Shown here: positions 1,030 to 15,064 of the stretch, piece by piece
How the letters are laid out: every line of letters begins with the position of its first letter
Position numbering within the stretch: position 1 is the first letter of the stretch
From: Gammaproteobacteria bacterium
GTDB lineage: Bacteria; Pseudomonadota; Gammaproteobacteria; Thiohalomonadales; Thiohalomonadaceae
NCBI GenBank assembly: GCA_041685115.1
Contig: JAWLGK010000017.1
Location: 27,712-59,711 of the forward strand
Length of the DNA: 32,000 bases
Reading direction: 5' to 3'
Made by a program: the position numbers and the translations under genes
Notes under the pieces: model-generated
What the model saw: only the letters and a program-made list of their open reading frames with translations
Databases searched by the model: none
Told to the model about the DNA's origin: nothing

Positions 1030-1048
1030 GGTACACGCTTGGGTACAC
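1030..1048. repeat. Left copy of 19-bp direct repeat GGTACACGCTTGGGTACAC (putative att core / island boundary)
   Basis: Identical 19/19 to 15046..15064, read directly from the sequence. The repeat is itself two GGTACAC half-sites. Confidence 0.8.
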
Positions 1049-1091
1049 ACAATCGGGCCTCTTGAGATAGCGATCCGCATTGTGCCAGCCG

Positions 1092-1352
1092 TCAGCCTCT
1101 GCGGTCACGCGGTGGCGTCCGCCGGCGGCTGCCCGTGGCGATGCCCTCGTCCTTCAGCACGGCCCGGTTAATCTCGAAGCCCTGCCTCACGATCTGCTGG
1201 CAACACGGGCAAATGGTCTTGCCCTTCGTCCGCTGCAACGCCTGGTACACGGCCGCATTGCCTACGCCAACAGCCTCGGCCGCCTGATAGGGCTTCATGT
1301 CCGGGTTGTTCTTGAGCAGCTCAAGCGCCTGCTGGGTCTTGCTCTTCGCCAT
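1092..1352 (-). CDS. small putative HTH DNA-binding regulator with C-terminal CPCC motif
   Basis: 86-aa ORF with a strong SD (AGGAGG 7 nt upstream of ATG 1352). The segment KPYQAAEAVGVGNAAVYQAL looks like a helix-turn-helix. It is divergent from the plus-strand operon across an operator-like inverted repeat. Confidence 0.6.
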   Translation of the reverse strand: MAKSKTQQALELLKNNPDMKPYQAAEAVGVGNAAVYQALQRTKGKTICPCCQQIVRQGFEINRAVLKDEGIATGSRRRTPPRDRRG

Positions 1353-1375
1353 TCGTGAGCCTCCTGAGGCCGCAG

Positions 1376-1425
1376 ATTCTACACTCTCACAGACCTATTG
1401 AACCATTCTCACAAATGTGTAGAAT
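1376..1425 (+). promoter_or_regulatory. Sigma-70-like promoter (-35 TTGAAC 1398..1403, -10 TAGAAT 1420..1425, 16-bp spacer) overlapped by inverted repeat ATTCTACAC (1376..1384) / GTGTAGAAT (1417..1425)
   Basis: Hexamers and the 9-bp inverted repeat were read directly. The right arm of the repeat covers the -10 element. The site lies between the divergent 86-aa HTH gene and the 1458.. operon. Confidence 0.5.
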
Positions 1426-1457
1426 CAAGTCACCCCAACCACGAAAAGGAGCCAGCC

Positions 1458-1700
1458 ATGGCCCAGAAAGCCAAACCCGAGGCGGTCACGATGGAAGGCG
1501 CGCGCCTCGCCTTCGAATGCCTGCTCGAACAAGAGCAAGACGTGTTCGCGCTCATCTCGGCGATCAGGGGCCTCGACCCTGGCACCGATTCCACGTTGAC
1601 CAGGCTGATTGACATGGCGTGGAACCGGCTTGGAGAGCATGGAAACCAGTACACCCTTGCCGACTATTTCGGCGTAGACGCAACCGGAGAACAGGCATGA
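1458..1700 (+). CDS. hypothetical protein (80 aa)
   Basis: ATG 1458 is preceded by AAAAGGAG. It lies downstream of the predicted promoter, so the track start at 1398 would be upstream of the transcription start. Its stop overlaps the next start (ATGA at 1697..1700). Confidence 0.6.
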   Translation: MAQKAKPEAVTMEGARLAFECLLEQEQDVFALISAIRGLDPGTDSTLTRLIDMAWNRLGEHGNQYTLADYFGVDATGEQA

Positions 1701-1984
1701 ACAAGAAGACACCCGCGCGCCCGTGCACTGTCGCTTTACCCTTCGCCCGTCTCACCCCCGACCACCCACACCACCTGTTTCAGGTCAATCCCGGCGTGGA
1801 CGCCAGCCAGGCGCTGGAGGAAGCGTCTTTGATGCTGTCCGCCGCCTACGACATGGCGGGGGAAATCGCCCAACTGGAGGACTTCAGCGATGCGGTTTGG
1901 GGCATGGTCACCCTGATCCGGATGGCAAAGGCCGTGGTCGATTCCGTCTCTGCCGGCGTCTGTCGGCCTCCCGAGGAGGCATGA
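1697..1984 (+). CDS. hypothetical protein (95 aa), possibly DUF3077-like
   Basis: Translationally coupled to the previous gene (ATGA). The motif HLFQVNPGVDASQALEEASLMLSAA recalls DUF3077 proteins of Pseudomonas islands. That assignment is from memory only. Confidence 0.55.
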   Translation: MNKKTPARPCTVALPFARLTPDHPHHLFQVNPGVDASQALEEASLMLSAAYDMAGEIAQLEDFSDAVWGMVTLIRMAKAVVDSVSAGVCRPPEEA

Positions 1985-1985
1985 C

Positions 1986-2201
1986 ATGGGCGCCCAGAAC
2001 GTCGTCAGGTTGGCCGAGCGAAGGATTCAGACCGATGCGCAATGGCTGCATGAGAGGCAGCGCGCCGATGCGTTCTTCATCCCCGCGTGCGCCCTGATAA
2101 TCGCTACCGTCAACCGCGATCCGGAAGCCGTCGAAGCGAACCTGCGCAAGCTGCGCGCCGTTGCGGAGCGGGAGTTCGGTATATCGGGAGGCCCTGCATG
2201 A
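1986..2201 (+). CDS. hypothetical protein (71 aa)
   Basis: ATG sits 1 nt after the previous stop. Its stop overlaps the next ATG (ATGA at 2198..2201), giving an operon-like tight packing. Confidence 0.5.
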   Translation: MGAQNVVRLAERRIQTDAQWLHERQRADAFFIPACALIIATVNRDPEAVEANLRKLRAVAEREFGISGGPA

Positions 2202-2320
2202 ACGCGCGCCCGACCACCCCCGCGCCTGTTCCGCCCCTGATGGCGCTCGACCCCTCGCCACGTCGTCACCTCGCGGCGTGGCCCTGTCCCGATGCGAGGA
2301 GGTGTCACCATGGAAGTTGA
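2198..2320 (+). CDS. possible very small Pro-rich ORF (40 aa)
   Basis: Supported only by the ATGA coupling to the upstream gene. It overlaps the next gene by 11 nt. Composition is unconvincing. Confidence 0.25.
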   Translation: MNARPTTPAPVPPLMALDPSPRRHLAAWPCPDARRCHHGS

Positions 2321-2657
2321 CGAAGACGCGGCCCTTGTCCGCGAAGCCGTGGCGCTCCTACGCTCCGGCCGGCTCTACGGCACGTCCGGCGCGGCGGCTC
2401 TGGCTGCGGTGCTGCTGCACGCCTACAACCCAGCGACATGGCGGTTTGATGTCACGGACTTGTGCGTCTTGGATTCGCGCCTGGAGCTGCTGGCGTGGGC
2501 GGTGCTGCGCTACCGCGTGGCCGGGCATGAGCCCCAGCGCGCCCTTGCCGGCGGGGATGCCGAGTTCCGCCCCATCGCGTGGAGCTACGGGGCGGGCGCC
2601 TGGTGCGCTCCGGAGCCGTTCTCGCCCCACGACAAGCCGCCCCGGTGGGAGGATTGA
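2310..2657 (+). CDS. hypothetical island protein (115 aa)
   Basis: ATG 2310 is preceded by GAGGAGG. The protein begins MEVDEDAALVREAVALLRSG... No motif was recognised with confidence. Confidence 0.6.
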   Translation: MEVDEDAALVREAVALLRSGRLYGTSGAAALAAVLLHAYNPATWRFDVTDLCVLDSRLELLAWAVLRYRVAGHEPQRALAGGDAEFRPIAWSYGAGAWCAPEPFSPHDKPPRWED

Positions 2658-2661: not shown

Positions 2662-2916
2662 GTGACCGTCGATATCTCCCTGCCGCCGCTTTTCATCGAC
2701 CTCGACCAAGTGGCGACCCTGACCACGCTCTCAGCCTCGACCATCCAAAACATGGTCGCTCGAAACGAGTTCCCGGCGCCGCGCGAGCTGTCCAGCCGCC
2801 GCGTTGCCTGGTTGTACCGCGAGGTGATGGAATGGGCGGAGAGTCGGCCGGTTTCGAGCATCCTGCCGCCGCCGAACACTGGGGCCAAGAAGCCGCGCGG
2901 CGTGCCCTCAGCCTGA
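2662..2916 (+). CDS. alpA: AlpA-family phage/island transcriptional regulator or excisionase (copy 1)
   Basis: GTG 2662 follows GGTGGGAGG. The segment LIDLDQVATLTTLSASTIQNMVARNEFPAPRELSSRRVAWLYREVMEWAESR fits the AlpA/MerR-like HTH pattern (FP.P..L..R...W...EV..W). Only the last 84 codons of track ORF 2161..2916 are used. Confidence 0.8.
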   Translation: MTVDISLPPLFIDLDQVATLTTLSASTIQNMVARNEFPAPRELSSRRVAWLYREVMEWAESRPVSSILPPPNTGAKKPRGVPSA

Positions 2917-2953: not shown

Positions 2954-2997
2954 GTTACTGGAGTAACTTTTCCAGTAACTTTCACAGTAACTTTCTC
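2954..2997. repeat. Iteron-like array: GTTACT-GG-AGTAAC palindrome followed by AGTAACTTT x3 at 12-bp spacing
   Basis: AGTAACTTT occurs at 2962, 2974 and 2986. An inverted GTTACT lies at 2954..2959. The patch is AT-rich and sits directly downstream of alpA copy 1. Confidence 0.75.
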
Positions 2998-3713: not shown

Positions 3714-3998
3714 TGGGCTTCAAAGCTTCGAAAATGGGGAATTAAGGGGTGTGCCCTGCGCCTGGAGCGAACGTCCAGGATTGCTCTCCGCAGTGGCAGC
3801 ATCCAAGAGGATGCCGGGTGCGGGTCACGGCTTCGCGCACTAAGCCGGGCACGGAACAAGCCGCCCACGGCCCGTACAGTTCCCGAAGGAACCACGTTCC
3901 CCAACCCCCTTCCGGCTGGGTCGCAGGGCACCCGGCCATTGTAGCGGGCGCGGTCGGGCATGGCACCGGGGCATTCACCCAGCCCATCCCGCCGGGGC

Positions 3999-4027
3999 TT
4001 GCCGAACTGTATCCCATTTTCTACAAT
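3999..4027 (+). promoter_or_regulatory. Sigma-70-like promoter of the toxin-antitoxin operon (-35 TTGCCG, 17-bp spacer, -10 TACAAT)
   Basis: TTGCCG at 3999..4004 and TACAAT at 4022..4027. The -10 ends 7 nt before the higB-like ATG at 4035, so the transcript could be leaderless or short-leader. Confidence 0.55.
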
Positions 4028-4034
4028 CACACCC

Positions 4035-4325
4035 ATGAAGACCATCCTCACCACCGACCTGTTCAACGAGTGGTTCGCCGGGCTGCGCGATAAGCAGGGG
4101 GCTCGCCGGATTCAGGCCCGCATCGACCGGGCCGAGGATGGCAACTTCGGCGACTGCGAGCCGGTGGGCGAAGGCGTGTCGGAGATGCGGATTCACTGCG
4201 GGCCGGGCTACCGCGTGTACTTCACGCAGCGCGGCATGGAGATCGTGATCCTGCTGGCGGGCGGCGACAAGTCCACCCAGCCCAAGGACATCAAGACCGC
4301 GCTGGAGCTGGCGCGGCAATTGTAA
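4035..4325 (+). CDS. higB: type II toxin, RelE/ParE-superfamily 'addiction module killer' (HigB-like)
   Basis: Protein: MKTILTTDLFNEWFAGLRDKQGARRIQARIDRAEDGNFGDCEPVGEGVSEMRIHCGPGYRVYFTQRGMEIVILLAGGDKSTQPKDIKTA. This is the typical killer-protein pattern, with a toxin-first gene order and the cognate antidote 12 nt downstream. Confidence 0.85.
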   Translation: MKTILTTDLFNEWFAGLRDKQGARRIQARIDRAEDGNFGDCEPVGEGVSEMRIHCGPGYRVYFTQRGMEIVILLAGGDKSTQPKDIKTALELARQL

Positions 4326-4337
4326 CGAGAGGTCACC

Positions 4338-4637
4338 ATGGGAACCATCAAGCTGCACAAGTGGGATAGCGCCGAACACCTCAAGACCGAGGAAGACATG
4401 GCGCAGTACCTGGAAGCCTGCATGGAGGAAGCCGGCGACGACGCGGCCTTCATCGCCAAGGCGCTCGGGAACATCGCCCGCGCCAAGGGCATGAGCCAGC
4501 TCGCCAAGGACACGGGCCTGGGACGCGAAAGCCTCTACAAGGCGCTATCCGGAGAGAACAACCCGAGCTTCGCCACCATCCTGAAGGTCGTGCACGCGCT
4601 GGGGCTGAAACTCCACCCTGAAGTCGCCCATCGCTGA
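4338..4637 (+). CDS. higA: type II antitoxin, addiction module antidote protein (HigA-family HTH)
   Basis: Motifs seen: HKWDSAEHLKTEEDMAQYLEACMEE, IAKALGNIARAKGMSQLAKDTGLGRESLYKALSGENNPSFATILKVVHALGLKL. This is the characteristic antidote-family sequence. Confidence 0.85.
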   Translation: MGTIKLHKWDSAEHLKTEEDMAQYLEACMEEAGDDAAFIAKALGNIARAKGMSQLAKDTGLGRESLYKALSGENNPSFATILKVVHALGLKLHPEVAHR

Positions 4638-4741: not shown

Positions 4742-5290
4742 CTACTCGGCGCCCGGTGCGTCGATGCCCAGGCGCTCACGGCGGCCCACAAGGAAGGCGT
4801 CCCGCTTGGCGGCCTCAGCCAATACCCGGTTGTAGAGGTCATCCAGCACCTCCTTGGGCGGGAACACGTTCAGGCTGATTTCCTCTTTGACCTCCACCCT
4901 GTCCCGCCATAGGTGCGGCTGGCGGTTGCGCAGCCATAGGCTCTGCGCCTGCACGCTGGGCGGCACCTGGCGCCGGAGCGGCCGGACAACAGCCCCCGAC
5001 CCTTCTCCCTCGGCAACTGGCCGTTCCTCCGTGACGAAGTGCCCGCCCACGGCGCTCCTGTAGAGGCTGTCCGCCACGTCGGAATCCGCCGCCATCTTCC
5101 CCGCCGAGATGGACGCGCAAAAATCGGCGTGAGCGCGCTTCCAACGGTTGATGGTCGCCTCGTCCACCCCGAAGAAGTCAGCCAAGCCCGCATCCGTCAG
5201 CCCCAACAGGCAGAGCTTCCGGGCCTGTTCGGCGAACTCCTCACGGTACTTGGTCGGGCGGCCTCGCCTACCCCTGGTCGTCGTGCTCAT
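4742..5290 (-). CDS. terminase small subunit-like DNA-binding protein (paralogue 1)
   Basis: Good SD (AAGGGGG). The N-terminus GRPTKYREEFAEQARKLCLLGLTDAGLADFFGVDEATINRWKRAHADF and the C-terminal LWLRNRQPHLWRDRVEV match the pattern I associate with phage TerS proteins (GRP.KY...HTH...W...hpeF...NR.P..WRD). The assignment is from memory and was not searched. Confidence 0.6.
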   Translation of the reverse strand: MSTTTRGRRGRPTKYREEFAEQARKLCLLGLTDAGLADFFGVDEATINRWKRAHADFCASISAGKMAADSDVADSLYRSAVGGHFVTEERPVAEGEGSGAVVRPLRRQVPPSVQAQSLWLRNRQPHLWRDRVEVKEEISLNVFPPKEVLDDLYNRVLAEAAKRDAFLVGRRERLGIDAPGAE

Positions 5291-5858
5291 CGGTCAGCCC
5301 CCTTTCTCGCATCACGGCCTGCTGCCGCTCGCGCGCCTGCTGCATGCGATCCTCGAACAGGCGCAGCAGCGCTTCACCATCCGGGCCGCTCACGGTCACA
5401 TCGGCCTGGTGCTCAATCCGGTCGCGCCACTTCTCGGGCTGCCGGTTCTTCAACCAGATGAACGCCGCCCCGGTGTCCGGCGGGTAATGCTTGGTGAGCG
5501 GGGTCAGCGTTACCAAGCCCTGATAGTTGGAGACGTGGACATCCGGGTGGGAGTAGCCGATGGCGCGCTGGTAGAGGGCAGCGGCCACCTTTGCGTCGGC
5601 ATCCGACTTGCCCTCTTTTATGGACTGCAAAAATTCGGGATGCGCCCCTTTCCAGCCGTGAAAGGTGCGCTCGGACACGCCGAAGAAGGCCGCCATCTCG
5701 GCATCGGTTTGCCCCAGCAGCGCCAGCCGGCGGGCCTGTTCGGCATAGTCGGCGCGGTAGAGCGTCGGACGGCCGCGCGCCGGCTTCTCCTTCGCCTTGC
5801 TGGTGCTCTTGCGGGCCTGCTGCGGCTGGCGCTTGGGCTTACTGGATGGCGTGGTCAT
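5268..5858 (-). CDS. terminase small subunit-like DNA-binding protein (paralogue 2)
   Basis: GRPTLYRADYAEQARRLALLGQTDAEMAAFFGVSERTFHGWKGAHPEF ... IWLKNRQPEKWRDRIEH is clearly paralogous to 4742..5290. The ATG at 5858 (MTTPSSKPK...) is chosen because upstream codons overlap ORF 5839..6045. The start is uncertain. Confidence 0.6.
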   Translation of the reverse strand: MTTPSSKPKRQPQQARKSTSKAKEKPARGRPTLYRADYAEQARRLALLGQTDAEMAAFFGVSERTFHGWKGAHPEFLQSIKEGKSDADAKVAAALYQRAIGYSHPDVHVSNYQGLVTLTPLTKHYPPDTGAAFIWLKNRQPEKWRDRIEHQADVTVSGPDGEALLRLFEDRMQQARERQQAVMRERGLTDEHDDQG

Positions 5859-6045
5859 TTTCGGGGATGGGCCTCTGCTCGACGGGCAGGTGGTGAAAGG
5901 ACGCGGCCAGCTCACCCAGGACAATCTCAGCCGCCTTCCGAAGGTCTGGCGAGATGTGCGGGGCGATGATGATGCCGCCCTGCTCGTGCAGGCGGGCAAA
6001 GAGCATCAGCGCCCACAGGATGCGATCTTCTTTCGTTTCGGGCAT
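5839..6045 (-). CDS. hypothetical protein (68 aa)
   Basis: Strong SD (AAGGAGCGGAG) before ATG 6045. The ORF is tightly packed within the minus-strand operon. Confidence 0.5.
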   Translation of the reverse strand: MPETKEDRILWALMLFARLHEQGGIIIAPHISPDLRKAAEIVLGELAASFHHLPVEQRPIPENDHAIQ

Positions 6046-6360: not shown

Positions 6361-6585
6361 TCAGGCCCTTGGCGTGCTGAGCGGCACCGTCAACCGCCGG
6401 CGGGCTTCCTTTGCCCGCTGTTCCCTTTCCGCACTGATTGCCCGCGCGATGCCAACCAAGCAACGATTCCCGGTCTCCTCGGCGATCTCACGGCAGAGAT
6501 TGAGCCGGTCGCCGTGCTGTTCGGCCAACACCTCGTCAGAGGTCAGCGGCGCCCGGATGCGATTCGGTAGCAGCATCGCCTTCAT
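6361..6585 (-). CDS. hypothetical protein (74 aa)
   Basis: ATGA start/stop overlap with the upstream gene at 6582..6585. Confidence 0.45.
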   Translation of the reverse strand: MKAMLLPNRIRAPLTSDEVLAEQHGDRLNLCREIAEETGNRCLVGIARAISAEREQRAKEARRRLTVPLSTPRA

Positions 6586-7370
6586 GCCCGGAATCCCGGA
6601 TAGCGCAAGCTGCGCTTGCTACCTGATCGCTCCCAGTCGTCGCGATCAATGGCCGTAAGTGAACACAGTGTCATCGGAATCAGTAGCTCGACGAAGTGGC
6701 CGTCCTTGTCCACAGGCGAACTCAACGGCATGCCGATGGACTCGATCACCAGCGGCGAGTAGGTGCGCCCTTTGTATTTCATGGCGAGCCTCGCCGGCGC
6801 GTTGGGCGGGAGCGCTGCATATGCCATCGCCTCGTCCAACGGCTTTCCTTGCGCGAACTGCTTGATGCCTTCGAGGACCGCCATGATCGGGCCATCGTCC
6901 GCCAGACGCTCCGGCAGCGTCCACTTGACGAGCTGTTCAACCGGAGCTTCAACCTCTTTCGCTGGATCGCGCCACGCCCGGAAGAGCGCCACCACCTGAA
7001 TCTTCAGCGGCGGCATACCAGCGAAGACTTGGGTGGAGTTCAGCTTCGTAACGCCAGTGCGCCCCTCGAACTTGCCCATGAATTTCGAGAGCGAGCCACC
7101 CGGATCGGTGAATGCCTGTATCGCACCACTCGATAACATGGCCCTCATGGTTGGTGCCATGTTGCCGCTGTCCTCGAAAGGCGAGGACCACCCTAACTGC
7201 ATGTCCAAACTGCACTCGGTTAACGCAGCCTGAACCGTGGGAATGGGCCGCTCCTGACTGTCCTTCTCGATGCGCTTCCAGTACCTGGACGACCCTACGC
7301 GCTCCACCGGCCAAAAAGTGGCGATCAGGTGTGGCGAGAGCCCGTCCCAAAGCGAGGTCAACTCAGCCAT
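6582..7370 (-). CDS. hypothetical protein (262 aa), function unknown
   Basis: Uninterrupted ORF in the operon that overlaps the upstream gene by 8 nt. No motif was recognised. Confidence 0.6.
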   Translation of the reverse strand: MAELTSLWDGLSPHLIATFWPVERVGSSRYWKRIEKDSQERPIPTVQAALTECSLDMQLGWSSPFEDSGNMAPTMRAMLSSGAIQAFTDPGGSLSKFMGKFEGRTGVTKLNSTQVFAGMPPLKIQVVALFRAWRDPAKEVEAPVEQLVKWTLPERLADDGPIMAVLEGIKQFAQGKPLDEAMAYAALPPNAPARLAMKYKGRTYSPLVIESIGMPLSSPVDKDGHFVELLIPMTLCSLTAIDRDDWERSGSKRSLRYPGFRA

Positions 7371-7572: not shown

Positions 7573-7699
7573 GCTGGTTCTCCGAAGGCGGCCGGGTCGG
7601 CCTCATCCGAACTGGAATTCAGCGGTGGCTATTCCCGTGACGTGCGGTCTTTTATTCGCCACGCCCGCCCGGCCATTGAACGGTTTGTGCTGCTTGGCG

Positions 7700-9074: not shown

Positions 9075-9884
9075 TCACGCGGTCGCCCCTTCGGTCATGG
9101 CTTGCGCGCCCTCGGCAACGTCGGCGCCGCTGGCAATGTCGGGAAAGCGCCGGAGCGCCAGGGCCGCAGACTCGGCGGCTTCCTTGGCGCGCTCAACGGT
9201 GCTTACGAGCTTCGCGCCGGCCTTCATGTCCTCGAACTCCGGATTCAGTTCGGCGAAGCGCTCCAAGGCTGCGTGAGCCTCACGCTGGGCCGCTGAGACC
9301 GTGGCTACGGTCTGACCAAGGCACTCCATGCGGTCGTGCATCCGGCGCAGCCAGTCCATCTGCTCCAGCCGCGCCTGATCGAACTCGCGGAACATCCACG
9401 CGGAAACCTGCCGCTCCATGGTCATGCGGGCGCCCACCTCCCAGTCGTCCATGGCGCCGAAGAGGTAGTCGATGGAGACCTCGTAAACCTCGGCGGCCCG
9501 ACGAATTACCCACAACGGCAGCGACTCGCGATCCGCAGGTGCTTCGAACGCAGCGAGCTTGGCCTTCGTGATGCCAATTCGCGCGGCGGCCTCCCACTGC
9601 TTCAGTCCGGTCAACTCTCGGGCCTCAGTGAGGCGTTGCCCAACGATCTTCACGACCGTCGCCGCCCTCAGATGCCGACCGCCAGGGGGCGCTTCCACCC
9701 CTTCGCCCATCTGTTCGCCGTCCTCGGGCCGCTGAGGCGCTTCCTCCGGTACCGGGGTTGGTTGGTGCTCCAACATGCTCGTTCTCGCCTCCTGTACGGT
9801 GTGCGCTGGTCTGGTGTTGGCGATCATCGCGGCGCGAACGGCCGCCGCTGTCGGCTTTTTCTGAAAGGGGAAAAAGTCGCTCAC
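9075..9884 (-). CDS. XRE-family HTH regulator with extended N- and C-terminal regions
   Basis: The central IVGQRLTEARELTGLKQWEAAARIGITKAKLAAFE is a Cro/CI-type HTH. The GTG start overlaps the primase-helicase stop (GTGA at 9881..9884). The true start could be internal. Confidence 0.65.
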   Translation of the reverse strand: MSDFFPFQKKPTAAAVRAAMIANTRPAHTVQEARTSMLEHQPTPVPEEAPQRPEDGEQMGEGVEAPPGGRHLRAATVVKIVGQRLTEARELTGLKQWEAAARIGITKAKLAAFEAPADRESLPLWVIRRAAEVYEVSIDYLFGAMDDWEVGARMTMERQVSAWMFREFDQARLEQMDWLRRMHDRMECLGQTVATVSAAQREAHAALERFAELNPEFEDMKAGAKLVSTVERAKEAAESAALALRRFPDIASGADVAEGAQAMTEGATA

Positions 9885-11758
9885 CGCACCCCCTCCAGGT
9901 CATCGGCTTCGGCCTGTTCGATCTCGCCTTGGGTGTAGTCGTCCGCTATGGAGTAATTCACGTAGCGCCAGGGCCGCCCGTCCGGCTTGCTCAGAAATTG
10001 GTGGCTCTCCCGGTCGAACCACAGCGCCGCCCGTGGCTCGTCGTCGCCGTTCCGTTGCTTTGCGCAGATCAGCATTGCCCCCGGCTGCTCCTGGATTTCC
10101 AGCGGCGCCGGGATGCCGTCGGCTTCGGCGCGGCGGATCGCCTCCTCGCGTTTCTTGTTGCGCCAGCAGAGCAAGAGCGTGTCCGTCATATCCGAAATGC
10201 CGCCGGTGCCCTTCACGTCGAACTTGCCCGGAGGCTTGTCCTCGGACTCGCCCTTTCGTGTGTGCGCAACCAACATCACGTGGGCATCGTGTTCTTTCGC
10301 GAAGTCCGTCAGCCGGTCAACGAACCGCTTCTGGCCGTTGTAATCGTCTTCAGCGAACCCGCACTTGGCGAGGTTGTCGATCACGAAGAGGCGGATGCCG
10401 TAGCGGCGGCGGGCGTAGGCGAACACGTCGAGAATGCGATCAGCCTTTGCGGTGCCCACCACATCGAAGACCCAGAGCCGATCCGCGTACCACCGATGGA
10501 TCGCGCGAATGTAGGGCTCGGATGGTACGGCCATCGCCGCCGCCTGCCGGGTGAGCCTGCGAAGCCACTTGACCGGCTTGAACTCCATCGAGGCGATGCA
10601 CGCGCGCTCCCCCTGCGATAGCGCCCCCAGGGTGAGGTGGCCGGCAATCTCGGACTTCCCGTGTCCGTTCACGCCAGCAAGAACGGACACCTCGCCAGGC
10701 CGGAAGAGCAACAGGCCGTGCAGCTTCCGCCAGGGCGGCAGGAACCCGCGCTCGGCCTCATCGGCCGGATAGAACTCGCGCACCACGTCATCGGCGTACA
10801 GGGCGGCGGAGCGGAGTTCGTCGGGGTCCAGCGTTCGGGCCGCTGTGAGGAGGTTGCGTGCTTGTGTGGGCGTCCACCCTGCCCGCAGCAGGTCGTTGGC
10901 GTCCTTGTGCGGCGCCGGCATCGTGACGACTCGGCAACGTTCGCGCCCCAGCCGCTCCGCGATCACGGCGGTGGCCTCTTGGCCTGGGCCGTCGGCGTCA
11001 AGCGCCAAGTAAATCGTGTCGAACCGCTCCAGGTGCTGGAACTCGTGTTCGATCCACTGCTGCTTGGCTCCGCTGCCACCGCCAAACGGCACCGACAGGG
11101 CGGGAGCGCCAAGCTGAAACATGCTCATGGCGTCCACCTCGCCTTCGGTGATAGTCACCTCGCGGGCGTTGTCGGGGATGGCTTGCCAGCCGAACAGGCA
11201 CGGCTGGGTGTCCTTCTCCACCCGCACTTGCTTCTTGCCGTTGGGCCGGTCGAGGCCCAGATACTTCACCGCAATGAGGTCGCCATCGCGCAGGGAGGGG
11301 AGCACGATTTCGCGCCCCCGCTCGGCAACGCGGTAGGCGGCCAGGGTATCGGGGGTCAATCCGCGCTCGCGGGTGAGGTAGTCGAGCACGGGGGAGCCGT
11401 CGCGCGGGGCTTGGCACTTCGGCCGCTCAGGGCGCCGGTACTCTTGGCGCCGATGGCCGGCGAACTCGGGATCGCGCACGCCAAGATGGGCCTTGGCCTC
11501 GGCGATGGCCTGAGCCAGCGGAATCGACCGGCAGGCGGCCCAAAGGTCCAGGAGGTCGCCGCTCTCCCCCGTCGCGAAGTCACCCCACACACCAGTCTTC
11601 TCGCCGGTCAGGTGCACCCCCAAGCTTTTGCCGGCCTCGCCGTCGGTCGAGCCGGCGCGCCACTCGTGACCCTCGCGCTTGCCATTGGGCAGCAGCAGCT
11701 TTGCCACGGCCTCCGCGTCGCGGGCGAGCATGGCGGCAATGTCGCGCGCCGTCGTCAT
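9881..11758 (-). CDS. bifunctional primase-helicase (TOPRIM domain + DnaB/RecA-like NTPase)
   Basis: TOPRIM motifs are ITEGEVDAMS and YLALDADGPGQ. Walker A is LAGVNGHGKSE and Walker B is LFVIDNL. ATG 11758 overlaps the upstream stop (ATGA). N-terminus: MTTARDIAAMLA...GKSLGVHLTGEKTGVWGDFATGESGDLLDLW. Confidence 0.85.
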   Translation of the reverse strand: MTTARDIAAMLARDAEAVAKLLLPNGKREGHEWRAGSTDGEAGKSLGVHLTGEKTGVWGDFATGESGDLLDLWAACRSIPLAQAIAEAKAHLGVRDPEFAGHRRQEYRRPERPKCQAPRDGSPVLDYLTRERGLTPDTLAAYRVAERGREIVLPSLRDGDLIAVKYLGLDRPNGKKQVRVEKDTQPCLFGWQAIPDNAREVTITEGEVDAMSMFQLGAPALSVPFGGGSGAKQQWIEHEFQHLERFDTIYLALDADGPGQEATAVIAERLGRERCRVVTMPAPHKDANDLLRAGWTPTQARNLLTAARTLDPDELRSAALYADDVVREFYPADEAERGFLPPWRKLHGLLLFRPGEVSVLAGVNGHGKSEIAGHLTLGALSQGERACIASMEFKPVKWLRRLTRQAAAMAVPSEPYIRAIHRWYADRLWVFDVVGTAKADRILDVFAYARRRYGIRLFVIDNLAKCGFAEDDYNGQKRFVDRLTDFAKEHDAHVMLVAHTRKGESEDKPPGKFDVKGTGGISDMTDTLLLCWRNKKREEAIRRAEADGIPAPLEIQEQPGAMLICAKQRNGDDEPRAALWFDRESHQFLSKPDGRPWRYVNYSIADDYTQGEIEQAEADDLEGVR

Positions 11759-12501
11759 ACCGCCCCCACGAGCCAGTCGGGTCTCTCCGCTGGGGCTGGC
11801 GTGCCCCTCCGGCTTTCGAGGTACTTTCGAACCCACGGGATCGGTTCGCTGACATCCTCGCGTTCGGCGCGCTCGATAGCCTGGACCACGGCGGCGTCGC
11901 CGTGATTCTTCCGCATCAGGCCCAGAAAGCTACGTGCCCCCTTCGCCGCGCAGCCCTTCGCCGTCAGGAAGGCGAGGCAATCGCCAAAGATTGGATCTGG
12001 CGCCGGCGCGGTCGCTGTTGCTGGCGTTGCCGAATCCGAATTGCCCGGCGGCGCGGCGGCGCCAGCCGAAGGCGGAACCTCCGAAGGAGGGTTAAGGGAA
12101 TCAGGAATCAGTAAGAGGGAATCAGCCGGGCCGGTTCTGTGCTCGCCCTGGTCCTGTACCGTGCAAGCACTGTGCTCGCCCGGTGCCGGTATCGTGCTTC
12201 CCGATTCCCGGCAGTGCGGGTTCTGGTGCTTGGTGAAGTTCAGCACCTGGATGAACCGCTCATTTCCAACGTGGTAACGCAGGATGAAGCCGGCGTCGTG
12301 AAGCTCGCCCAGCATGTCGTCCACGCTGCCGTCGTCGTAGGGCAAGATTTCGGCGCGGATGCGCTTCGGACGGTCTTCGAGGCGGCCTTCGCGGTCGGCA
12401 AGGCACCAGAGGCCGGCGAACAGCAGCCGGGCCAGAGGCGAGCACTCCGCCAAGGTCTCGTTCTTGAAGAAGCCGGGCTTGATGTTGCGGGCACGGGCCA
12501 C
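11755..12501 (-). CDS. replication-associated protein (phage replisome-organiser-like N-terminal domain)
   Basis: GTG start with SD ACGGGGG. The N-terminus ARNIKPGFFKNETLAECSPLARLLFAGLWCLADREGRLEDRP is a motif I recall from prophage replication modules. The gene sits immediately upstream of, and is coupled to, the primase-helicase. The middle of the protein is a low-complexity Pro/Ala linker. Confidence 0.55.
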   Translation of the reverse strand: MARARNIKPGFFKNETLAECSPLARLLFAGLWCLADREGRLEDRPKRIRAEILPYDDGSVDDMLGELHDAGFILRYHVGNERFIQVLNFTKHQNPHCRESGSTIPAPGEHSACTVQDQGEHRTGPADSLLLIPDSLNPPSEVPPSAGAAAPPGNSDSATPATATAPAPDPIFGDCLAFLTAKGCAAKGARSFLGLMRKNHGDAAVVQAIERAEREDVSEPIPWVRKYLESRRGTPAPAERPDWLVGAV

Positions 12502-12685: not shown

Positions 12686-12940
12686 TCAGTTGGCGGCGCC
12701 GTGGTTCTGCTCACGGCTCGCGATCCAGGTGCGGATGTCCTCGACCTTCCAGGCGGTGACTTTTTCAGAAAGCTTGATGGGCGCAGGGAAATCACCGCGC
12801 TTCACCATCCGCCATAAGGTCGGCGCGCTGAACGGGAAGATTCCTGTGGTGGCCGGGCGTCGCTTGCGGGCTGGCTTACTGACCAGTTGTGTTTCGCGGA
12901 GATAGCCGGTTTCGGGGATCGTTACGGGCCGCGATGTCAT
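12686..12940 (-). CDS. alpA: AlpA-family transcriptional regulator or excisionase (copy 2)
   Basis: FPFSAPTLWRMVKRGDFPAPIKLSEKVTAWKVEDIRTWI is the canonical AlpA HTH pattern. It is the first gene of the long minus-strand operon. Confidence 0.85.
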   Translation of the reverse strand: MTSRPVTIPETGYLRETQLVSKPARKRRPATTGIFPFSAPTLWRMVKRGDFPAPIKLSEKVTAWKVEDIRTWIASREQNHGAAN

Positions 12941-12971: not shown

Positions 12972-12997
12972 CGTATTAAATTGACGCGAGGTGAAAC

Positions 12998-13037
12998 AAA
13001 AAAGGCGTGTCCGCCGGAGACTGACCAGCCTCCGGCG
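12998..13037 (-). terminator. intrinsic terminator after the 189-aa cargo gene
   Basis: On the minus strand, CGCCGGAG-(10-nt loop)-CTCCGGCG forms an 8-bp stem. A short GGCG/CGCC hairpin and TTTTTT (12998..13003) follow. Confidence 0.6.
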
Positions 13038-13065
13038 TACAGTGTGCAGTCTCCGGCGGAGACTG

Positions 13066-13635
13066 TTACTTGCCGCCTGCCAGCTCTTTGGCTCGCTCAC
13101 GGATTGAGTCGTATGCCCACCGGTAACTCCGGGTTGCTCCATCTATGCGCTGTTCATCAAGCCAAATGAGAAGTTTTTTTGCTGCTTCAGGATGGCTCGC
13201 GAACTCGCCGCGCCTGCGCTCCCATTCCGCCAGGAAGACATCCTTCACTGCCCTATTTCTGTCGTGCCTTTGTTCATTCGCGTTATCAGAAGCCTTCTTC
13301 CTTCTGTCTTTCTCAATCTCGCCGAGAATGCTGCCTGTGCATGCAGATTCCTCGACCTTCGCGAGCTGTACCATTGAGTGAAGGACTTCCGGGCGAATGG
13401 AAATCTGAGACACCAGACTGGTCAGATCTCTATTGCGAAGCAACACGGTACGCCGACAGGAGTAATACAGCGCCACGGCAAGAAGCTCAGTGAAGCGGTA
13501 GCCGGTCAAGGCTTTCCATTCGTCAACCCAGGAATCAATGTTATCTCGCGATAACTCCAGTTCTCTCTGAACCTCCTCAGGTGCAAAGAGCAAGAGTTTC
13601 GCCACGTCTTCAATAGTCGGATCTCGAACCCACAT
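13066..13635 (-). CDS. orphan cargo protein (189 aa), unknown function
   Basis: ATG 13635 (MWVRDPTIEDVAKLL...) has SD AGGGGG. The upstream part of track ORF 13066..13875 overlaps the integrase 3' end and reads as junk. The gene is visibly more AT-rich than its neighbours and has its own terminator. No family was recognised. Confidence 0.6.
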   Translation of the reverse strand: MWVRDPTIEDVAKLLLFAPEEVQRELELSRDNIDSWVDEWKALTGYRFTELLAVALYYSCRRTVLLRNRDLTSLVSQISIRPEVLHSMVQLAKVEESACTGSILGEIEKDRRKKASDNANEQRHDRNRAVKDVFLAEWERRRGEFASHPEAAKKLLIWLDEQRIDGATRSYRWAYDSIRERAKELAGGK

Positions 13636-13732
13636 AGCGCCCCCTATCAGCGCACCCTTGAAGAGGAAGCCGCGCCGGCCGGGGAAGGGTGCCCCGGTTG
13701 TCTCCCCGTCGGGATAGGCGCGGCTGTACTCG

Positions 13733-14995
13733 TTACGATGCGGCCCGCGTCTCCTTGCGCAGCGGCACCACGTTCCAATCCTTCCCCTCCTCGCACGCCA
13801 CGATGAAGGTGGCCAGTTTCGCCAGGGCTTCCTTGCGCTCTTCGAAATAGATGTGCCGGTCGTAGATGCCCTCAACGCCCTTGATTTTGTGGTTCAGGCA
13901 TCGCTCGGCGATGTGCGGATCAGTTCCTAGTGCCGCGAGGTGAGTCCGGGCGGTTCGTCGGAGATCGTGGACGGTGAAAGAGGGAAGCCCATGCTTGACC
14001 TTCGCCAGGGCCACAGAGAGGGTCGATTCGCAGACGTGGGGAAGCATCCGGTTCTGCATCTTGCGGGCCGGCAATACCCAAGCGCTGTTGCCGGCGAAGC
14101 GTTTCAATTCTTTCAGCCATCCCACTGCCTGGGGCGGTAGCGGGATATCGATGGCAGTGTTGGTCTTTGTCCGCTCGGCCGGCAGATACCAGACAGCATT
14201 GTCCAGGTCGAACTCCGCCCATGGCGCGGCCATAAACTCCATCTTGCGCACCGCCAGCACCAACAGCAGCTTGACCGTCAGGCCGTTCTCGACGCTGAAG
14301 CCCTTGGCGTTACGCATGGCCTCGAACAGCGTAACCAGCTCGTCGCGGGACAAGGCGCGGTCGCGGGCCTCCTCCTTGCCGCCGGCGTCGTTCAGGTCGA
14401 AGGCAGCGGCAGGGTTGAATTCGATCATGTGCCGCTTCACGGCGTAGTCGAACATCCGCCGCACCCATCGCAGCACGTCGTTGGCGATGGTCGGGGCGCC
14501 GCGCTTGACGATGGTCTGGAGCATCGCATCGACGTGCAGCGGCTTCACGTCCTCGATGTTCAGCTTGCCGATGTTCGGCTTGATGTCCTTCTCGATACGG
14601 CTGCGCACGATGTTGGGATGCTTCCAGCGGCCCAGGATCATGCGCTCGAAATACTCATCCGCCAGTTGCCCGACCGTCACGGCGTGCTTCTCGGCCTCGA
14701 TCTTGGCCAGGGCCTCGGCCTTGCGCTCCTGCTTCTCGCCGGCCACGTCGTGCCCCAAGGCCACGCGGGCGGAAAGCTCTTTCGCCTGCTTGCGGGCATC
14801 AGCAAGGGACAGCTCGCGATAGCTGCCCAGGCTCATCACCCGCGCCTTGCCTCCGAAGCGGTAGCGAAAGCGCCACGTCGGAACCGCGTCATTCCCGCGG
14901 AACCGCAGGTACAGCCCATCGCCGTCGCCGCGTCCCTCGAACCGCTCGCCGGCCTTGATCCAGTTGCGGATCTGCACGTCCGTCAGTTTGCCCAT
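13733..14995 (-). CDS. int: tyrosine recombinase, P4-type (DUF4102 N-terminus) integrase
   Basis: ATG 14995: MGKLTDVQIRNWIKAGERFEGRGDGDGLYLRFRGNDAVPTWRFRYRFGGK is the typical P4-family N-terminus. The C-terminus carries HDLRRTARTHLAALG...LNH...GIYDRH, which supplies the catalytic R, H-x-x-R and Y. The 34 codons upstream in the track run through the att repeats. Confidence 0.9.
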   Translation of the reverse strand: MGKLTDVQIRNWIKAGERFEGRGDGDGLYLRFRGNDAVPTWRFRYRFGGKARVMSLGSYRELSLADARKQAKELSARVALGHDVAGEKQERKAEALAKIEAEKHAVTVGQLADEYFERMILGRWKHPNIVRSRIEKDIKPNIGKLNIEDVKPLHVDAMLQTIVKRGAPTIANDVLRWVRRMFDYAVKRHMIEFNPAAAFDLNDAGGKEEARDRALSRDELVTLFEAMRNAKGFSVENGLTVKLLLVLAVRKMEFMAAPWAEFDLDNAVWYLPAERTKTNTAIDIPLPPQAVGWLKELKRFAGNSAWVLPARKMQNRMLPHVCESTLSVALAKVKHGLPSFTVHDLRRTARTHLAALGTDPHIAERCLNHKIKGVEGIYDRHIYFEERKEALAKLATFIVACEEGKDWNVVPLRKETRAAS

Positions 14996-15011
14996 GTCAC
15001 CGCCTCGCCAT

Positions 15012-15034
15012 GTGTACCCATTCCCGTGTACCCA
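15012..15034. repeat. two GTGTACCCA direct repeats (15012..15020, 15026..15034), inverted relative to the GGTACAC half-sites of the att repeat
   Basis: Read directly. With 15046..15064 they form a cluster of four related 7-9-mers, two in each orientation, just upstream of int. These are likely recombinase-binding sites. Confidence 0.55.
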
Positions 15035-15045
15035 ATCCCTCATCA

Positions 15046-15064
15046 GGTACACGCTTGGGTACAC
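15046..15064. repeat. Right copy of 19-bp direct repeat GGTACACGCTTGGGTACAC (putative att core)
   Basis: Identical 19/19 to 1030..1048. It lies 51 bp upstream of the integrase start. Confidence 0.8.

What the first reader, a model, noticed from the sequence alone, without database searches (positions are those of the whole stretch)
1030..15064. 14-kb capsid-less, integrase-bounded, satellite-like island splitting the gmk / yicC neighbourhood at a non-tRNA site
A perfect 19-bp direct repeat (GGTACACGCTTGGGTACAC) brackets 14,035 bp. Inside are a P4-type tyrosine integrase abutting the right repeat, two AlpA regulators, an XRE regulator and a TOPRIM + DnaB-like primase-helicase with an organiser-like partner. 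There are also two TerS-like genes, HigBA and about a dozen ORFans. I could not recognise any capsid, portal, TerL, tail or lysis gene. That gene set is characteristic of phage satellites (PICI, P4-like, PICMI) rather than prophages or ICEs. The specific combination, and the intergenic rather than tRNA/tmRNA integration site, do not match a family I can name. Both flanks are core housekeeping genes.
Basis: partly seen in the sequence, partly recalled or inferred. Interest (0 to 1): 0.8.

Follow-up and report, generated by a model that had tools for sequence, protein, structure and literature searches.

The report
PICI-like phage satellite inserted in yicC
This is a real 14.2-kb mobile island that looks like a phage-parasitising "satellite", but it sits at an already known insertion hotspot (the last 19 bases of the yicC gene), and the striking 19-base repeat is an internal integrase-binding motif, not the insertion site.

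Summary
The perfect 19-mer is real: two copies in the window, none expected by chance. The island is real too. A 1.5-kb contig from a close relative (92-95% DNA identity) is an empty site. There yicC ends ...CAGGTGCAAAACATCGAATGA, its stop overlaps the gmk ATG, and the 19-mer is absent. The true junctions are an imperfect repeat of the yicC 3' end, at 949-965 and 15175-15193. The island is about 14.2 kb. The 19-mers lie 64 and 110 nt inside the junctions. Each holds two GGTACAC heptamers, so they are most likely arm-type sites for the integrase.

The integrase is 67% identical to that of an E. coli island at yicC whose gene content is PICI-like. The 3' end of yicC is a published hotspot for PICIs and mobilisable islands. 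The gene order is int, int-alpA RNA, AlpA, replication initiator, primase-helicase, regulator, two TerS, then accessory genes including HigBA. No capsid, portal, TerL or lysis gene was found. This meets four of the five PICI core components.

The gene labelled "head morphogenesis" instead has a tail-tube-initiator fold like phage P1 PmgG, and its role is unknown.

Verdict: a new member of a known kind. The claims of an intergenic site and an unnamed family fail.

The parts
315..950 (-). gmk (left chromosomal flank). Its ATG (948-950) overlaps the attL core.
   Evidence: Pfam Guanylate_kin 1.8e-54. The exact 211-aa product is on record.
949..965 (.). attL core, ATTCGATGTTGCACCTG. It is a remnant of the yicC 3' end and is 2 nt shorter than the attB/attR copy.
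   Evidence: L242 positions 92-1056 align to window 965-3. The shared block CAGGTGCAA(AA)CATCGAAT lies at both junctions.
966..1029 (.). Distal arm between the core and the 19-mer. It contains an imperfect GC-rich hairpin (about 976-1009).
   Evidence: Read from the sequence. Relatives have the equivalent order: yicC remnant, hairpin, 19-mer.
1030..1048 (+). Distal 19-mer (two GGTACAC heptamers 12 nt apart). Inferred arm-type integrase-binding site.
   Evidence: It is absent from the empty site. In Methylomagnum and Aromatoleum the spacer varies while the heptamers are kept.
1092..1352 (-). g01, an 86-aa small protein with a weak helix-turn-helix. It is conserved at the distal end of related elements.
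   Evidence: HTH_23 below threshold. 84% identical in L151 and 51% in L243.
1619..1984 (+). DUF3077 protein (accessory).
   Evidence: Pfam 1.7e-10. phrog_6327.
2292..2657 (+). DUF7673 protein (accessory).
   Evidence: Pfam 5.7e-9. phrog_6694.
2662..2916 (+). Second AlpA/excisionase-like regulator. The start codon is inferred.
   Evidence: phrog_2790 3.6e-10 and phrog_66 2.5e-9 on the C-terminal part of ORF 2161-2916. Translation shown.
2962..2997 (.). Three tandem 12-mers, AGTAACTTT(T/C)NC. Candidate operator or iteron.
   Evidence: the repeat finder family D7. Function not tested.
3960..4637 (+). HigB-like toxin (3960-4325) and HigA-like antitoxin (4338-4637).
   Evidence: Pfam Gp49 8.3e-6; dnstrm_HI1420 1.3e-30 plus HTH_3.
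4742..5290 (-). TerS2, small terminase paralogue (182 aa).
   Evidence: phrog_309 1.1e-42. The exact product is on record. 42% identical to TerS1.
5268..5999 (-). TerS1, small terminase paralogue (243 aa; start uncertain).
   Evidence: phrog_309 7.6e-53. 51-55% identical to annotated TerS of P22-like and CUS-3 phages and 46% to a Pseudomonas phage TerS.
6066..6585 (-). g11 (95 aa; near-threshold DUF4884 match, phrog_6360) and g12 (74 aa). Function unknown.
6582..7370 (-). g13, a protein with a tail-tube-initiator / baseplate-tube-junction fold (P1 PmgG-like). Role in the island unknown.
   Evidence: phrog_1114 5e-44. AF2 pLDDT 81.6. Foldseek 9ay5_G and 9vzk_2, E about 1.6e-9, TM 0.75-0.79 relative to the target, plus contractile-injection-system and T4 tube initiators. 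734 homologues.
7363..8737 (-). g14 (69 aa), g15 (221 aa, coiled coil) and g16 (105 aa). With g17 and g13 they form a block found in the same order in related elements.
   Evidence: The same order is seen in L243/L244 and L249, and partly in L151. The g15 model is helical and has no informative fold match.
9075..9884 (-). g17, an HTH_31 (XRE-type) regulator. Possibly a late-operon regulator.
   Evidence: Pfam HTH_31 4.2e-7. A 49%-identical homologue lies directly upstream of the terminase gene in an Achromobacter prophage.
9881..11836 (-). Toprim + DnaB-like primase-helicase (start uncertain).
   Evidence: Pfam Toprim_2, AAA_25, DnaB_C. phrog_239 2.7e-122. More than 600 homologues at 45-55% identity on 30-60-kb viral contigs.
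11755..12501 (-). Replication initiation / organiser protein.
   Evidence: phrog_16167 3.4e-57. The exact product is on record.
12686..12940 (-). AlpA1 regulator / recombination directionality factor candidate.
   Evidence: Pfam Phage_AlpA 1.1e-5, above the cutoff.
13066..13641 (-). g22, a 191-aa ORFan in a low-GC (57-59%) segment between the integrase and AlpA. This is the accessory slot.
   Evidence: No hit in Pfam, PHROGs, PADLOC or NCBIfam. GC profile. Different genes occupy the same slot in relatives.
13655..13724 (-). int-alpA RNA motif (Rfam RF02996). It ends 13 nt before the g22 start codon.
   Evidence: 66.9 bits against a gathering score of 35.8; full-length match. Also present in relative L130.
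13733..14995 (-). Tyrosine integrase of the P4/CP4-57 type (420 aa).
   Evidence: Arm-DNA-bind_3 2.9e-21, Phage_int_M, Phage_integrase. 2897 homologues; more than 120 clusters at 70-86% identity. 67% identical to the integrase of an E. coli yicC island.
15012..15064 (.). Integrase-proximal arm sites: two inverted heptamers (15012-15018, 15026-15032) and the proximal 19-mer (15046-15064).
   Evidence: The same layout is found in E. coli, Methylomagnum and metagenome relatives.
15065..15174 (-). Island-borne segment that supplies the new yicC stop codon (TAA, 15173-15175), a terminator-like hairpin with a T-run, and a promoter-like TTGCAT-N17-CAGAAT facing the integrase gene.
   Evidence: It diverges from the empty site immediately after ...CATCGAAT. 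The motif ACATGCAAC...AAAAAGCC is conserved in relatives. The promoter and terminator roles are inferred.
15175..15193 (.). attR core, ATTCGATGTTTTGCACCTG, which is the last codons of yicC.
   Evidence: L242 positions 1-113 align to window 15284-15172 at 95% identity.
15173..16027 (-). yicC (right chromosomal flank).
   Evidence: Pfam YicC-like_N and YicC-like_C. The start codon was chosen from the translation.

Best explanation
The feature is a site-specifically integrated element of about 14.2 kb (window about 966-15174 plus one core copy). It is best read as a PICI-type phage satellite.

Shown:
- It entered by recombination within the last 19 bp of yicC (attB CAGGTGCAAAACATCGAAT).
- The island supplies a new yicC stop codon.
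- The duplicated core keeps the gmk ATG and its Shine-Dalgarno-like AGGTG.

Inferred from the T-run difference between attL and attR:
- Strand exchange lies in the (A)TTCGATG part of the core.

Inferred anatomy:
- The two perfect 19-mers, together with the inverted heptamers next to the integrase gene, are arm-type sites. The integrase's N-terminal Arm-DNA-bind_3 domain would bind them on the two arms of attP.

Inferred life cycle, by analogy with characterised PICIs:
1. A helper-phage signal activates AlpA.
2. The integrase, probably with an AlpA-type directionality factor, excises the circle.
3. The initiator and the primase-helicase replicate it.
4. The two TerS paralogues redirect a helper large terminase of a headful (pac) phage to island DNA, which is packaged in helper-made particles.
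5. HigBA stabilises the element.
6. g22 and the DUF genes are accessory cargo.

The conserved block g17-g16-g15-g14-g13, which includes the PmgG-like protein with a tube-initiator fold, probably acts on the helper. How it does so is unknown.
For: Empty site and junctions.

yicC and gmk are directly adjacent in about 60 of 80 gammaproteobacterial species.

Arm-site reading:
- GGTACAC occurs 9 times in the window against 1.3 expected. Six copies cluster at the island ends and one more lies near the left end.
- The 19-mer is absent from the empty site, from 80 yicC loci allowing up to 4 mismatches, and from E. coli K-12 allowing up to 3.
- In relatives the two copies keep the heptamers but differ in the spacer.
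- Tandem junction L120 has two 19-mers with a yicC remnant between them.
- Every gmk-side junction carries a yicC remnant about 65-80 nt from the 19-mer.
- The integrase has an Arm-DNA-bind_3 domain.

Satellite reading:
- The gene order is integrase, AlpA, initiator, primase-helicase, then TerS twice, with no capsid, portal, TerL or lysis gene.
- The TerS genes are 46-55% identical to phage TerS.
- The 14.2-kb IMG/VR contig L151 has the same late genes in the same order but a different integrase and replication module.
- The PICI definition is taken from PMC10085698.
- An E. coli yicC island with PICI-type content has a 67%-identical integrase.
Against: - No helper phage, excised circle or packaged form has been observed.
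- The fifth PICI core component, capsid morphogenesis, is not present. The only candidate has a tail-baseplate fold.
- Homologues of that gene in phages lie outside structural modules, so its role is open.
- Other islands with the same integrase carry no TerS. The integrase/att module therefore does not itself imply a satellite.
- SatelliteFinder's own profiles could not be run.
- The attL core is 2 nt shorter than attR. This could reduce excision if the difference arose after integration.
- No binding assay supports the arm-site assignment.
Confidence: 0.65

Rival explanations
1. It is a decayed prophage remnant. A temperate phage integrated at yicC and lost its structural and lysis genes, leaving the integrase, replication genes, TerS genes and one tail-related gene.
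For: - The replication module is common in 30-60-kb prophages.
- TerS, g13 and g17 all have homologues in true phages.
Against: - All called genes are intact, compactly arranged and mostly co-oriented. There is no insertion sequence or pseudogene.
- The same gene order recurs in independent elements of about 9-15 kb with different integrases (L151, L243, L249).
- TerS is kept without TerL and is duplicated, which is what satellites do.
- The size and order match PICIs.
Confidence: 0.15
2. It is an integrative mobilisable element, like the known yicC-specific MGIs (MGIVflInd1, MGIVmi1, SGI1-like elements), moved by a conjugative plasmid or ICE rather than by a phage.
For: - It uses the same target (the 3' end of yicC) as published MGIs (PMC8409611, PMC8978831).
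- A toxin-antitoxin pair sits near one end, as in GI21.
Against: - No relaxase, MobI, mating-pair or Tra family was hit in any ORF.
- The island instead has phage TerS genes and a phage-type replication module.
- An oriT mimic cannot be excluded from sequence alone.
Confidence: 0.08
3. The 19-mer is the true crossover core, and the attB is intergenic.
For: It is a perfect 19-bp repeat at both ends.
Against: - The empty site in a 92-95%-identical relative lacks the 19-mer and has no intergenic space at all.
- Copies in relatives differ in the spacer.
- The tandem junction has two 19-mers flanking a yicC remnant.
Confidence: 0.02

Closest known systems
PICI (phage-inducible chromosomal islands) of Proteobacteria, as defined for SatelliteFinder (PMC10085698) and in PMC6092414
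   Same: - Integrase, AlpA regulator, primase/replication module and TerS in the canonical order.
- Accessory genes between the integrase and the regulator and after TerS.
- No capsid, portal or lysis genes.
- Size of 14 kb.
- A specific non-tRNA att site.
   Different: - No recognisable capsid-morphogenesis gene.
- Two TerS paralogues.
- The replication module is an initiator plus a Toprim/DnaB-like primase-helicase.
- A conserved five-gene block containing a protein with a tail-tube-initiator fold.
- The host is an uncultured, high-GC gammaproteobacterium that is probably sulfur-oxidising.
- Helper dependence is untested.
[quoted passage not shown]
   Same: - The integrase is 67% identical over its full length.
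- The order is the same: yicC stop, then about 110 nt containing a terminator, then the GTGTACC-N5-GTGTACC motif, an inverted heptamer and the integrase gene.
- A variable gene and then an AlpA-like helix-turn-helix protein follow the integrase.
   Different: The cargo is unrelated. The E. coli island has an antirepressor, an Icd-like protein, C4/isrK RNAs, a P4-type primase, SSB, ProQ and PerC, and no TerS.
yicC-specific mobilisable genomic islands (MGIVflInd1, MGIVmi1, GISpuPO1, SGI1-like IEs; PMC8409611, PMC8978831)
   Same: - The target is the 3' end of yicC.
- The att repeats are short (21 bp reported for GISpuPO1).
- A toxin-antitoxin pair lies near one end.
   Different: - Those islands are mobilised by conjugation (oriT mimic, MobI or Tra genes).
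- None of these genes is found here.
- The relatedness of their integrases to this one was not tested.
Pseudomonas satellite-like prophage AH14b (PMC4936722)
   Same: - A capsid-less element of about 17 kb with a P4-type integrase, AlpA and its own primase.
- It carries an isolated homologue of a helper tail gene.
- It is packaged as multimers by headful packaging.
   Different: - AH14b integrates at a different site (an 18-bp repeat).
- It has no TerS.
- No sequence relationship to this island was tested.

Membership tests
PICI (SatelliteFinder definition, PMC10085698) | Integrase | tested here: met
   Pfam Arm-DNA-bind_3, Phage_int_M and Phage_integrase.
PICI (SatelliteFinder definition, PMC10085698) | Regulator homologous to AlpA, MerR or Stl | tested here: met
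   Phage_AlpA above the Pfam cutoff at 12686-12940. A second AlpA-like gene lies at about 2662-2916.
PICI (SatelliteFinder definition, PMC10085698) | Primase-replicase module | tested here: met
   phrog_239 primase/helicase 2.7e-122 and phrog_16167 initiator 3.4e-57. This was tested with the PHROG and Pfam libraries, not with SatelliteFinder's own profiles.
PICI (SatelliteFinder definition, PMC10085698) | Capsid-morphogenesis gene | tested here: not met
   The only candidate (phrog_1114, labelled 'PmgG-like head morphogenesis') folds like the P1 PmgG baseplate-tube junction protein. P1 PmgG is a tail protein (PMC9024508).
PICI (SatelliteFinder definition, PMC10085698) | Small terminase subunit | tested here: met
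   Two paralogues hit phrog_309 at 7.6e-53 and 1.1e-42. They have phage TerS homologues.
PICI (SatelliteFinder definition, PMC10085698) | Absence of forbidden components (tail, holin, portal, head-tail connectors) | tested here: inconclusive
   No holin, portal, connector or capsid hit was found. However, g13 has a tail-baseplate fold. Whether SatelliteFinder's tail profiles would match it was not testable.
PICI (SatelliteFinder definition, PMC10085698) | Conserved order: integrase, regulator, replication, packaging, accessory | tested here: met
   Coordinates on the minus strand run from 14995 down to 4742, followed by the accessory genes.
PICI (functional definition, PMC6092414) | Helper-phage-dependent induction, replication and specific packaging | not testable with these tools
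   This needs an experiment or virome reads.
yicC-targeting integrase / att module | Integration into the 3' end of yicC with a short duplicated core | tested here: met
   Empty site L242 compared with the window junctions.
yicC-targeting integrase / att module | Integrase homologous to those of other yicC islands | tested here: met
   67% identical to the E. coli OkiPb01679 yicC-island integrase. 73-75% identical to the integrases next to yicC in Methylomagnum and Aromatoleum. Similarity to the MGIVflInd1 and MGIVmi1 integrases was not tested.
Mobilisable genomic islands (MGI / SGI1-like) | Mobilisation genes or oriT (MobI, relaxase, TraG/TraN, RdfM) | tested here: not met
   No such Pfam family was hit in any island ORF. 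An oriT mimic cannot be tested from sequence.
P4-like satellites | Psu, Delta, Sid, epsilon (Ash) and the alpha primase | tested here: not met
   No hit to these proteins was found in Pfam or PHROGs. Only the integrase and AlpA are shared.
cfPICI | Own capsid, portal, head-tail connector and HNH/TerL genes | tested here: not met
   None was found, and no unassigned ORF is longer than about 220 aa.

The most novel reading that the evidence does not exclude
The block g17 (HTH_31) - g16 - g15 (coiled coil) - g14 - g13 (tube-initiator fold) is conserved in small islands with different integrases. Its g13 also sits in immunity or early regions of prophages. The block could be a new module in which a mimic of a baseplate-tube junction protein poisons or reprograms the assembly of contractile tails. 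That would be either a satellite hijacking or interference mechanism aimed at tails rather than capsids, or a prophage- and satellite-borne anti-phage defence. The duplicated TerS could let the element exploit two helper terminases.
Probability: 0.15. Interest if true: 0.7.

Novelty: new member of a known kind. Interest (0 to 1): 0.35.

Why it matters
- **Extends the known range.** PICI-type satellites at the yicC hotspot are known from E. coli. This extends them, with the same integrase/att module, to uncultured high-GC Gammaproteobacteria and to many Betaproteobacteria. The integrase/att module is highly conserved and travels with very different cargo.
- **A warning for boundary calling.** The longest perfect direct repeat around an island need not be the crossover site. 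Here it is a pair of internal integrase-binding motifs, and the true core is a shorter, imperfect repeat inside a gene.
- **A testable lead.** A widespread protein family (about 730 homologues) with a tube-initiator fold occurs in satellites and in prophage early regions. The PHROG label 'head morphogenesis' for it is misleading.
- **A consequence for the host.** The insertion separates the essential gmk-rpoZ genes from yicC. In the empty site the yicC stop overlaps the gmk start codon.

Tried and rejected
1. Exact-protein look-ups of gmk, yicC and the integrase found no contig. The empty site was reached only through a cluster mate of gmk.
2. A GTDB scan with YicC found no close relative (best 62% identity). 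It could only show that yicC and gmk are usually adjacent and that the 19-mer is absent.
3. I first read the TTGCAT-N17-CAGAAT motif as the chromosomal gmk promoter and the 19-mer as the gmk 5' UTR. I dropped this once L242 showed that the whole segment is island-borne.
4. The idea that the 19-mer is part of a tRNA or known RNA gene was tested. ARAGORN and Rfam found nothing at the 19-mer in the window or in the loci searched, 36 by ARAGORN and 10 by Rfam.
5. A literature search for the 19-mer sequence returned only unrelated papers.
6. E. coli K-12 lacks the motif.
7. PADLOC, NCBIfam and relaxed Pfam scans of the ORFans gave nothing.
8. A homologue search for g15 found only one relative. The resulting 2-sequence AF2 model (pLDDT 72.8) is a coiled coil with no significant fold match.
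10. Sequence search of TerS1 against the PDB found nothing.
11. I could not determine the target gene of the low-GC marine group that carries the same 19-mer. The 189-aa flanking ORF has no Pfam hit.

Full report
**1. The observation**

The 19-mer GGTACACGCTTGGGTACAC occurs exactly twice in the window, at 1030-1048 and 15046-15064. No further copy appears with up to two mismatches, and none is expected by chance. The window has no tRNA or tmRNA. The only Rfam match is an int-alpA RNA motif at 13655-13724 on the minus strand, scoring 66.9 bits. The flanking genes are gmk (315-950) and yicC (15173-16027), both on the minus strand. To the right of yicC lie a Ser/Thr kinase, a PP2C phosphatase, rph, rdgB, hemW and a NiFe hydrogenase operon.

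**2. The gene inventory**

The genome is 65% GC, so I picked ORFs by third-position GC and scanned them with Pfam and PHROGs. On the minus strand, running from yicC towards gmk, the order is:

- a tyrosine integrase with Arm-DNA-bind_3, Phage_int_M and Phage_integrase domains (13733-14995)
- the int-alpA RNA motif
- a 191-aa ORFan in a low-GC stretch (13066-13641)
- AlpA (12686-12940)
- a 56-aa ORF
- a replication initiator (11755-12501, phrog_16167, 3e-57)
- a Toprim/DnaB-like primase-helicase (9881-11836, phrog_239, 3e-122)
- an HTH_31 regulator (9075-9884)
- three ORFans (8420-8737, 7700-8365, 7363-7572)
- a protein matching phrog_1114 (6582-7370)
- two small ORFs
- two TerS paralogues (5268-5999 and 4742-5290; phrog_309 at 8e-53 and 1e-42; 42% identical to each other)

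The left part holds HigB/HigA-like genes (3960-4637). It also has a plus-strand set of DUF3077, a 71-aa ORF, DUF7673 and a second AlpA-like gene at about 2662-2916, and a small helix-turn-helix gene (1092-1352).

No capsid, portal, TerL, holin or lysin family was hit, even among shadow ORFs on the opposite strand. No unassigned ORF exceeds about 220 aa.

**3. Where the island really ends**

In about 60 of 80 gammaproteobacterial species representatives, yicC and gmk are directly adjacent. None of these 80 loci contains the 19-mer, even allowing four mismatches. E. coli K-12 lacks it too.

The exact 19-mer does occur in 68 metagenome contigs and in no viral contig. Wherever its context could be read, it lies at the end of an island.

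The first clue came from relatives. Every gmk-side junction has a short remnant of the yicC 3' end about 65-80 nt beyond the 19-mer. A tandem junction (L120) reads: integrase, 19-mer variant, terminator, a 24-nt yicC remnant, hairpin, exact 19-mer, next island.

The decisive result came from a cluster mate of the window's gmk (at least 90% identical), on a 1.5-kb Logan contig, L242:

- L242 positions 1-113 align to window 15284-15172 at 95% identity.
- L242 positions 92-1056 align to window 965-3 at 92% identity.
- In L242, yicC ends ...GAACAGGTGCAAAACATCGAATGA, and its TGA stop overlaps the gmk ATG.

This is an empty site, and it has no 19-mer. The block shared by both window junctions is CAGGTGCAA(AA)CATCGAAT. 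It lies at 949-965 (17 nt) and at 15175-15193 (19 nt). The island is therefore about 14.2 kb (966-15174, 64.1% GC against 66.5% in the flanks).

The island gives yicC a new TAA stop codon and leaves the YicC and Gmk proteins unchanged. It does separate the two genes, whose stop and start codons overlap in the empty site.

attL carries the shorter T-run and attR the attB-type one. This is what is expected if strand exchange lies in the ATTCGATG part of the core and attP naturally has two fewer T residues. That is an inference.

**4. What the 19-mer is**

The heptamer GGTACAC occurs nine times in the window against 1.3 expected. Two copies lie in each 19-mer, and two more lie inverted between the right 19-mer and the integrase start codon.

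The spacing from the core is 64 nt on the left and 110 nt on the right. The 110-113 nt distance from the yicC stop codon recurs in metagenome relatives, in E. coli, and in Methylomagnum and Aromatoleum.

In Methylomagnum and Aromatoleum the two copies differ from each other in the spacer but keep the heptamers. A crossover core would not tolerate that, but protein-binding sites would.

The integrase has an N-terminal arm-binding domain. I therefore read the 19-mers as arm-type integrase sites on the two arms of attP. This is inferred and no binding data exist.

The same exact 19-mer also lies at island ends in low-GC (38-46%) marine contigs. Those contigs have no yicC or gmk nearby, and one of them carries an integrase only 24% identical.

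**5. The integrase/att module is a known one**

The integrase has 2897 homologues at E<1e-30. More than 120 clusters are 70-86% identical to it, from Methylomagnum, Methylocaldum, Aromatoleum, Nitrosospira, Gallionellaceae and others.

In both complete genomes I examined, the integrase gene follows yicC by about 175 nt. An 11-kb contig starts too close to the integrase gene to show yicC. The cargo differs in all three.

In E. coli OkiPb01679 an integrase 67% identical to this one follows yicC, with the same terminator, heptamer pair and inverted heptamer. The cargo there is an antirepressor, an Icd-like protein, C4/isrK RNAs, a primase, SSB, ProQ and PerC regulators. That is typical E. coli PICI content (compare PMC11773190).

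About 1230 of 5425 complete E. coli genomes lack a match covering 80% of the query. In the partial matches listed, similarity to K-12 ends at or near the yicC stop codon.

The literature already describes the 3' end of yicC as a target of mobilisable islands (PMC8409611, PMC8978831). [quoted passage not shown]

**6. What kind of element it is**

SatelliteFinder's PICI definition lists five core components: integrase, AlpA/MerR/Stl regulator, primase-replicase, capsid morphogenesis and TerS. They occur in that order, and tail, holin and cfPICI genes are forbidden.

This island has four of the five, in the right order, and its size is typical. The TerS genes are 46-55% identical to TerS of P22-like/CUS-3 phages and of a Pseudomonas phage. 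This suggests a headful-packaging helper. The replication module is common in 30-60-kb prophages.

A 14.2-kb IMG/VR contig, L151, carries homologues of the HTH_31 regulator, g15, g14, g13, TerS and the small distal helix-turn-helix gene in the same order. Its integrase is only 32% identical and its initiator is O-like. Contigs L243/L244 and L249 share the HTH_31-g16-g15-g13 block; L243/L244 also have g14.

No conjugation or mobilisation gene was found. I therefore favour a PICI-type satellite (confidence 0.65) over a prophage remnant (0.15) or a mobilisable island (0.08).

**7. The 'head morphogenesis' gene**

phrog_1114 is labelled 'PmgG-like head morphogenesis'. However, P1 PmgG is a virion baseplate-tail tube junction protein similar to T4 gp48 (PMC9024508).

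An AlphaFold model of g13 (45-sequence alignment, pLDDT 81.6) matches PmgG in two P1 baseplate structures. The Foldseek E-value is about 1.6e-9, and the TM-score normalised to the target is 0.75-0.79. The model also matches tube-initiator proteins of contractile injection systems and of T4.

The family has 734 homologues. In Xanthomonas phage Rb1 the homologue, 46% identical, lies near the capsid and connector genes. In Acinetobacter phage ABMM1 it follows the repressor gene. In an Achromobacter prophage it lies beside the immunity region, far from any tail genes.

Its role in the island is therefore open. The capsid-morphogenesis criterion for PICI is not met.

**8. Verdict**

The repeat and the island are real, and an empty site exists. 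But the repeat is not the att core, the site is not intergenic, and both the site and the element type are known.

It is a new member of a known kind. Two points have some wider interest. First, an arm-site motif is conserved across very different integrases and hosts. Second, an uncharacterised conserved module is built around a tail-tube-initiator mimic.

Noticed in passing
L081-L148 (metagenome contigs), e.g. L103, L114, L105, L096: The exact 19-mer occurs in 68 metagenome contigs. Many are low-GC (38-46%) marine contigs with no yicC or gmk nearby. One (L103) has an integrase only 24% identical; another (L142) has one 27% identical. In L103 a second heptamer pair and an inverted heptamer sit just upstream of the integrase gene, about 230 nt from the first pair, which looks like an attP or a tandem junction. 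An identical arm motif is thus shared by very divergent integrases that use another, unidentified target.
   Followed up: partly
L103 8431-10113 (CRISPR array next to cas9-cas1-cas2) versus L114 about 9653-9682: A 30-nt stretch of a type II CRISPR array (66-nt period, about 25 units) is 100% identical to the sequence 75-104 nt downstream of the 19-mer in L114. These island ends therefore appear to be targeted by CRISPR immunity.
   Followed up: partly
L120 2440-2900; L130 12960-13090: Islands sit in tandem or as remnants at yicC. L120 has two 19-mers about 190 nt apart with a terminator and a 24-nt yicC remnant between them. L130 has a truncated second integrase N-terminus and a degenerate motif next to yicC.
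   Followed up: yes
E. coli genomes, yicC 3' end (L236, L245, L248): About 1230 of 5425 complete E. coli genomes lack a match covering 80% of a query that spans the yicC 3' end. In the partial matches listed, similarity to K-12 ends at or near the yicC stop codon. One such strain has a roughly 16-kb island with PICI-type content there. The site appears to be a major hotspot.
   Followed up: partly
window 6582-7370; PHROG phrog_1114: The PHROG annotation 'PmgG-like head morphogenesis' conflicts with experimental and structural data showing that P1 PmgG is a baseplate-tail tube junction protein.
   Followed up: yes
L246 19211-19918 (Achromobacter xylosoxidans prophage): A 49%-identical homologue of the island's HTH_31 regulator (g17) lies immediately upstream of the prophage terminase gene. 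This hints that g17 is a regulator of late or packaging genes.
   Followed up: no
window 13000-13650: GC falls to 57-59% here, against about 65% elsewhere, over the 191-aa ORFan between the int-alpA RNA and AlpA. Relatives have different genes of about 190-250 aa in this slot, so it looks like an accessory or defence hotspot. The RNA motif ends 13 nt before the ORF's start codon.
   Followed up: partly
window 2962-2997 and 13007-13063: Three tandem 12-mers (AGTAACTTT...) follow the second AlpA-like gene. A 17-nt near-perfect inverted repeat lies between AlpA1 and the ORFan. Both are candidate operator, iteron or terminator elements.
   Followed up: no
window 948-1048: In the empty site the gmk start codon overlaps the yicC stop codon. 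After insertion, gmk-rpoZ has 14 kb of island upstream and no obvious sigma-70 promoter in the left arm. Expression may depend on read-through from the island gene at 1092-1352.
   Followed up: no
window 22627-24615 and 28148-29290: A 662-aa ORF in a 70% GC stretch and a 380-aa ORF inside the hydrogenase cluster have no Pfam hit at E<=1e-5. The hydrogenase cluster resembles a hynS-isp1-isp2-hynL arrangement (the resemblance is recalled from memory, not tested).
   Followed up: no
L151 7984-10665; L249 4089-6641: In the closest relatives of the g13 module, a protein of 850-893 aa of unknown function follows g13. The two are 47% identical to each other, and the L151 protein has a weak 'tail-associated lysin' PHROG hit. 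This gene is absent from the window island.
   Followed up: no
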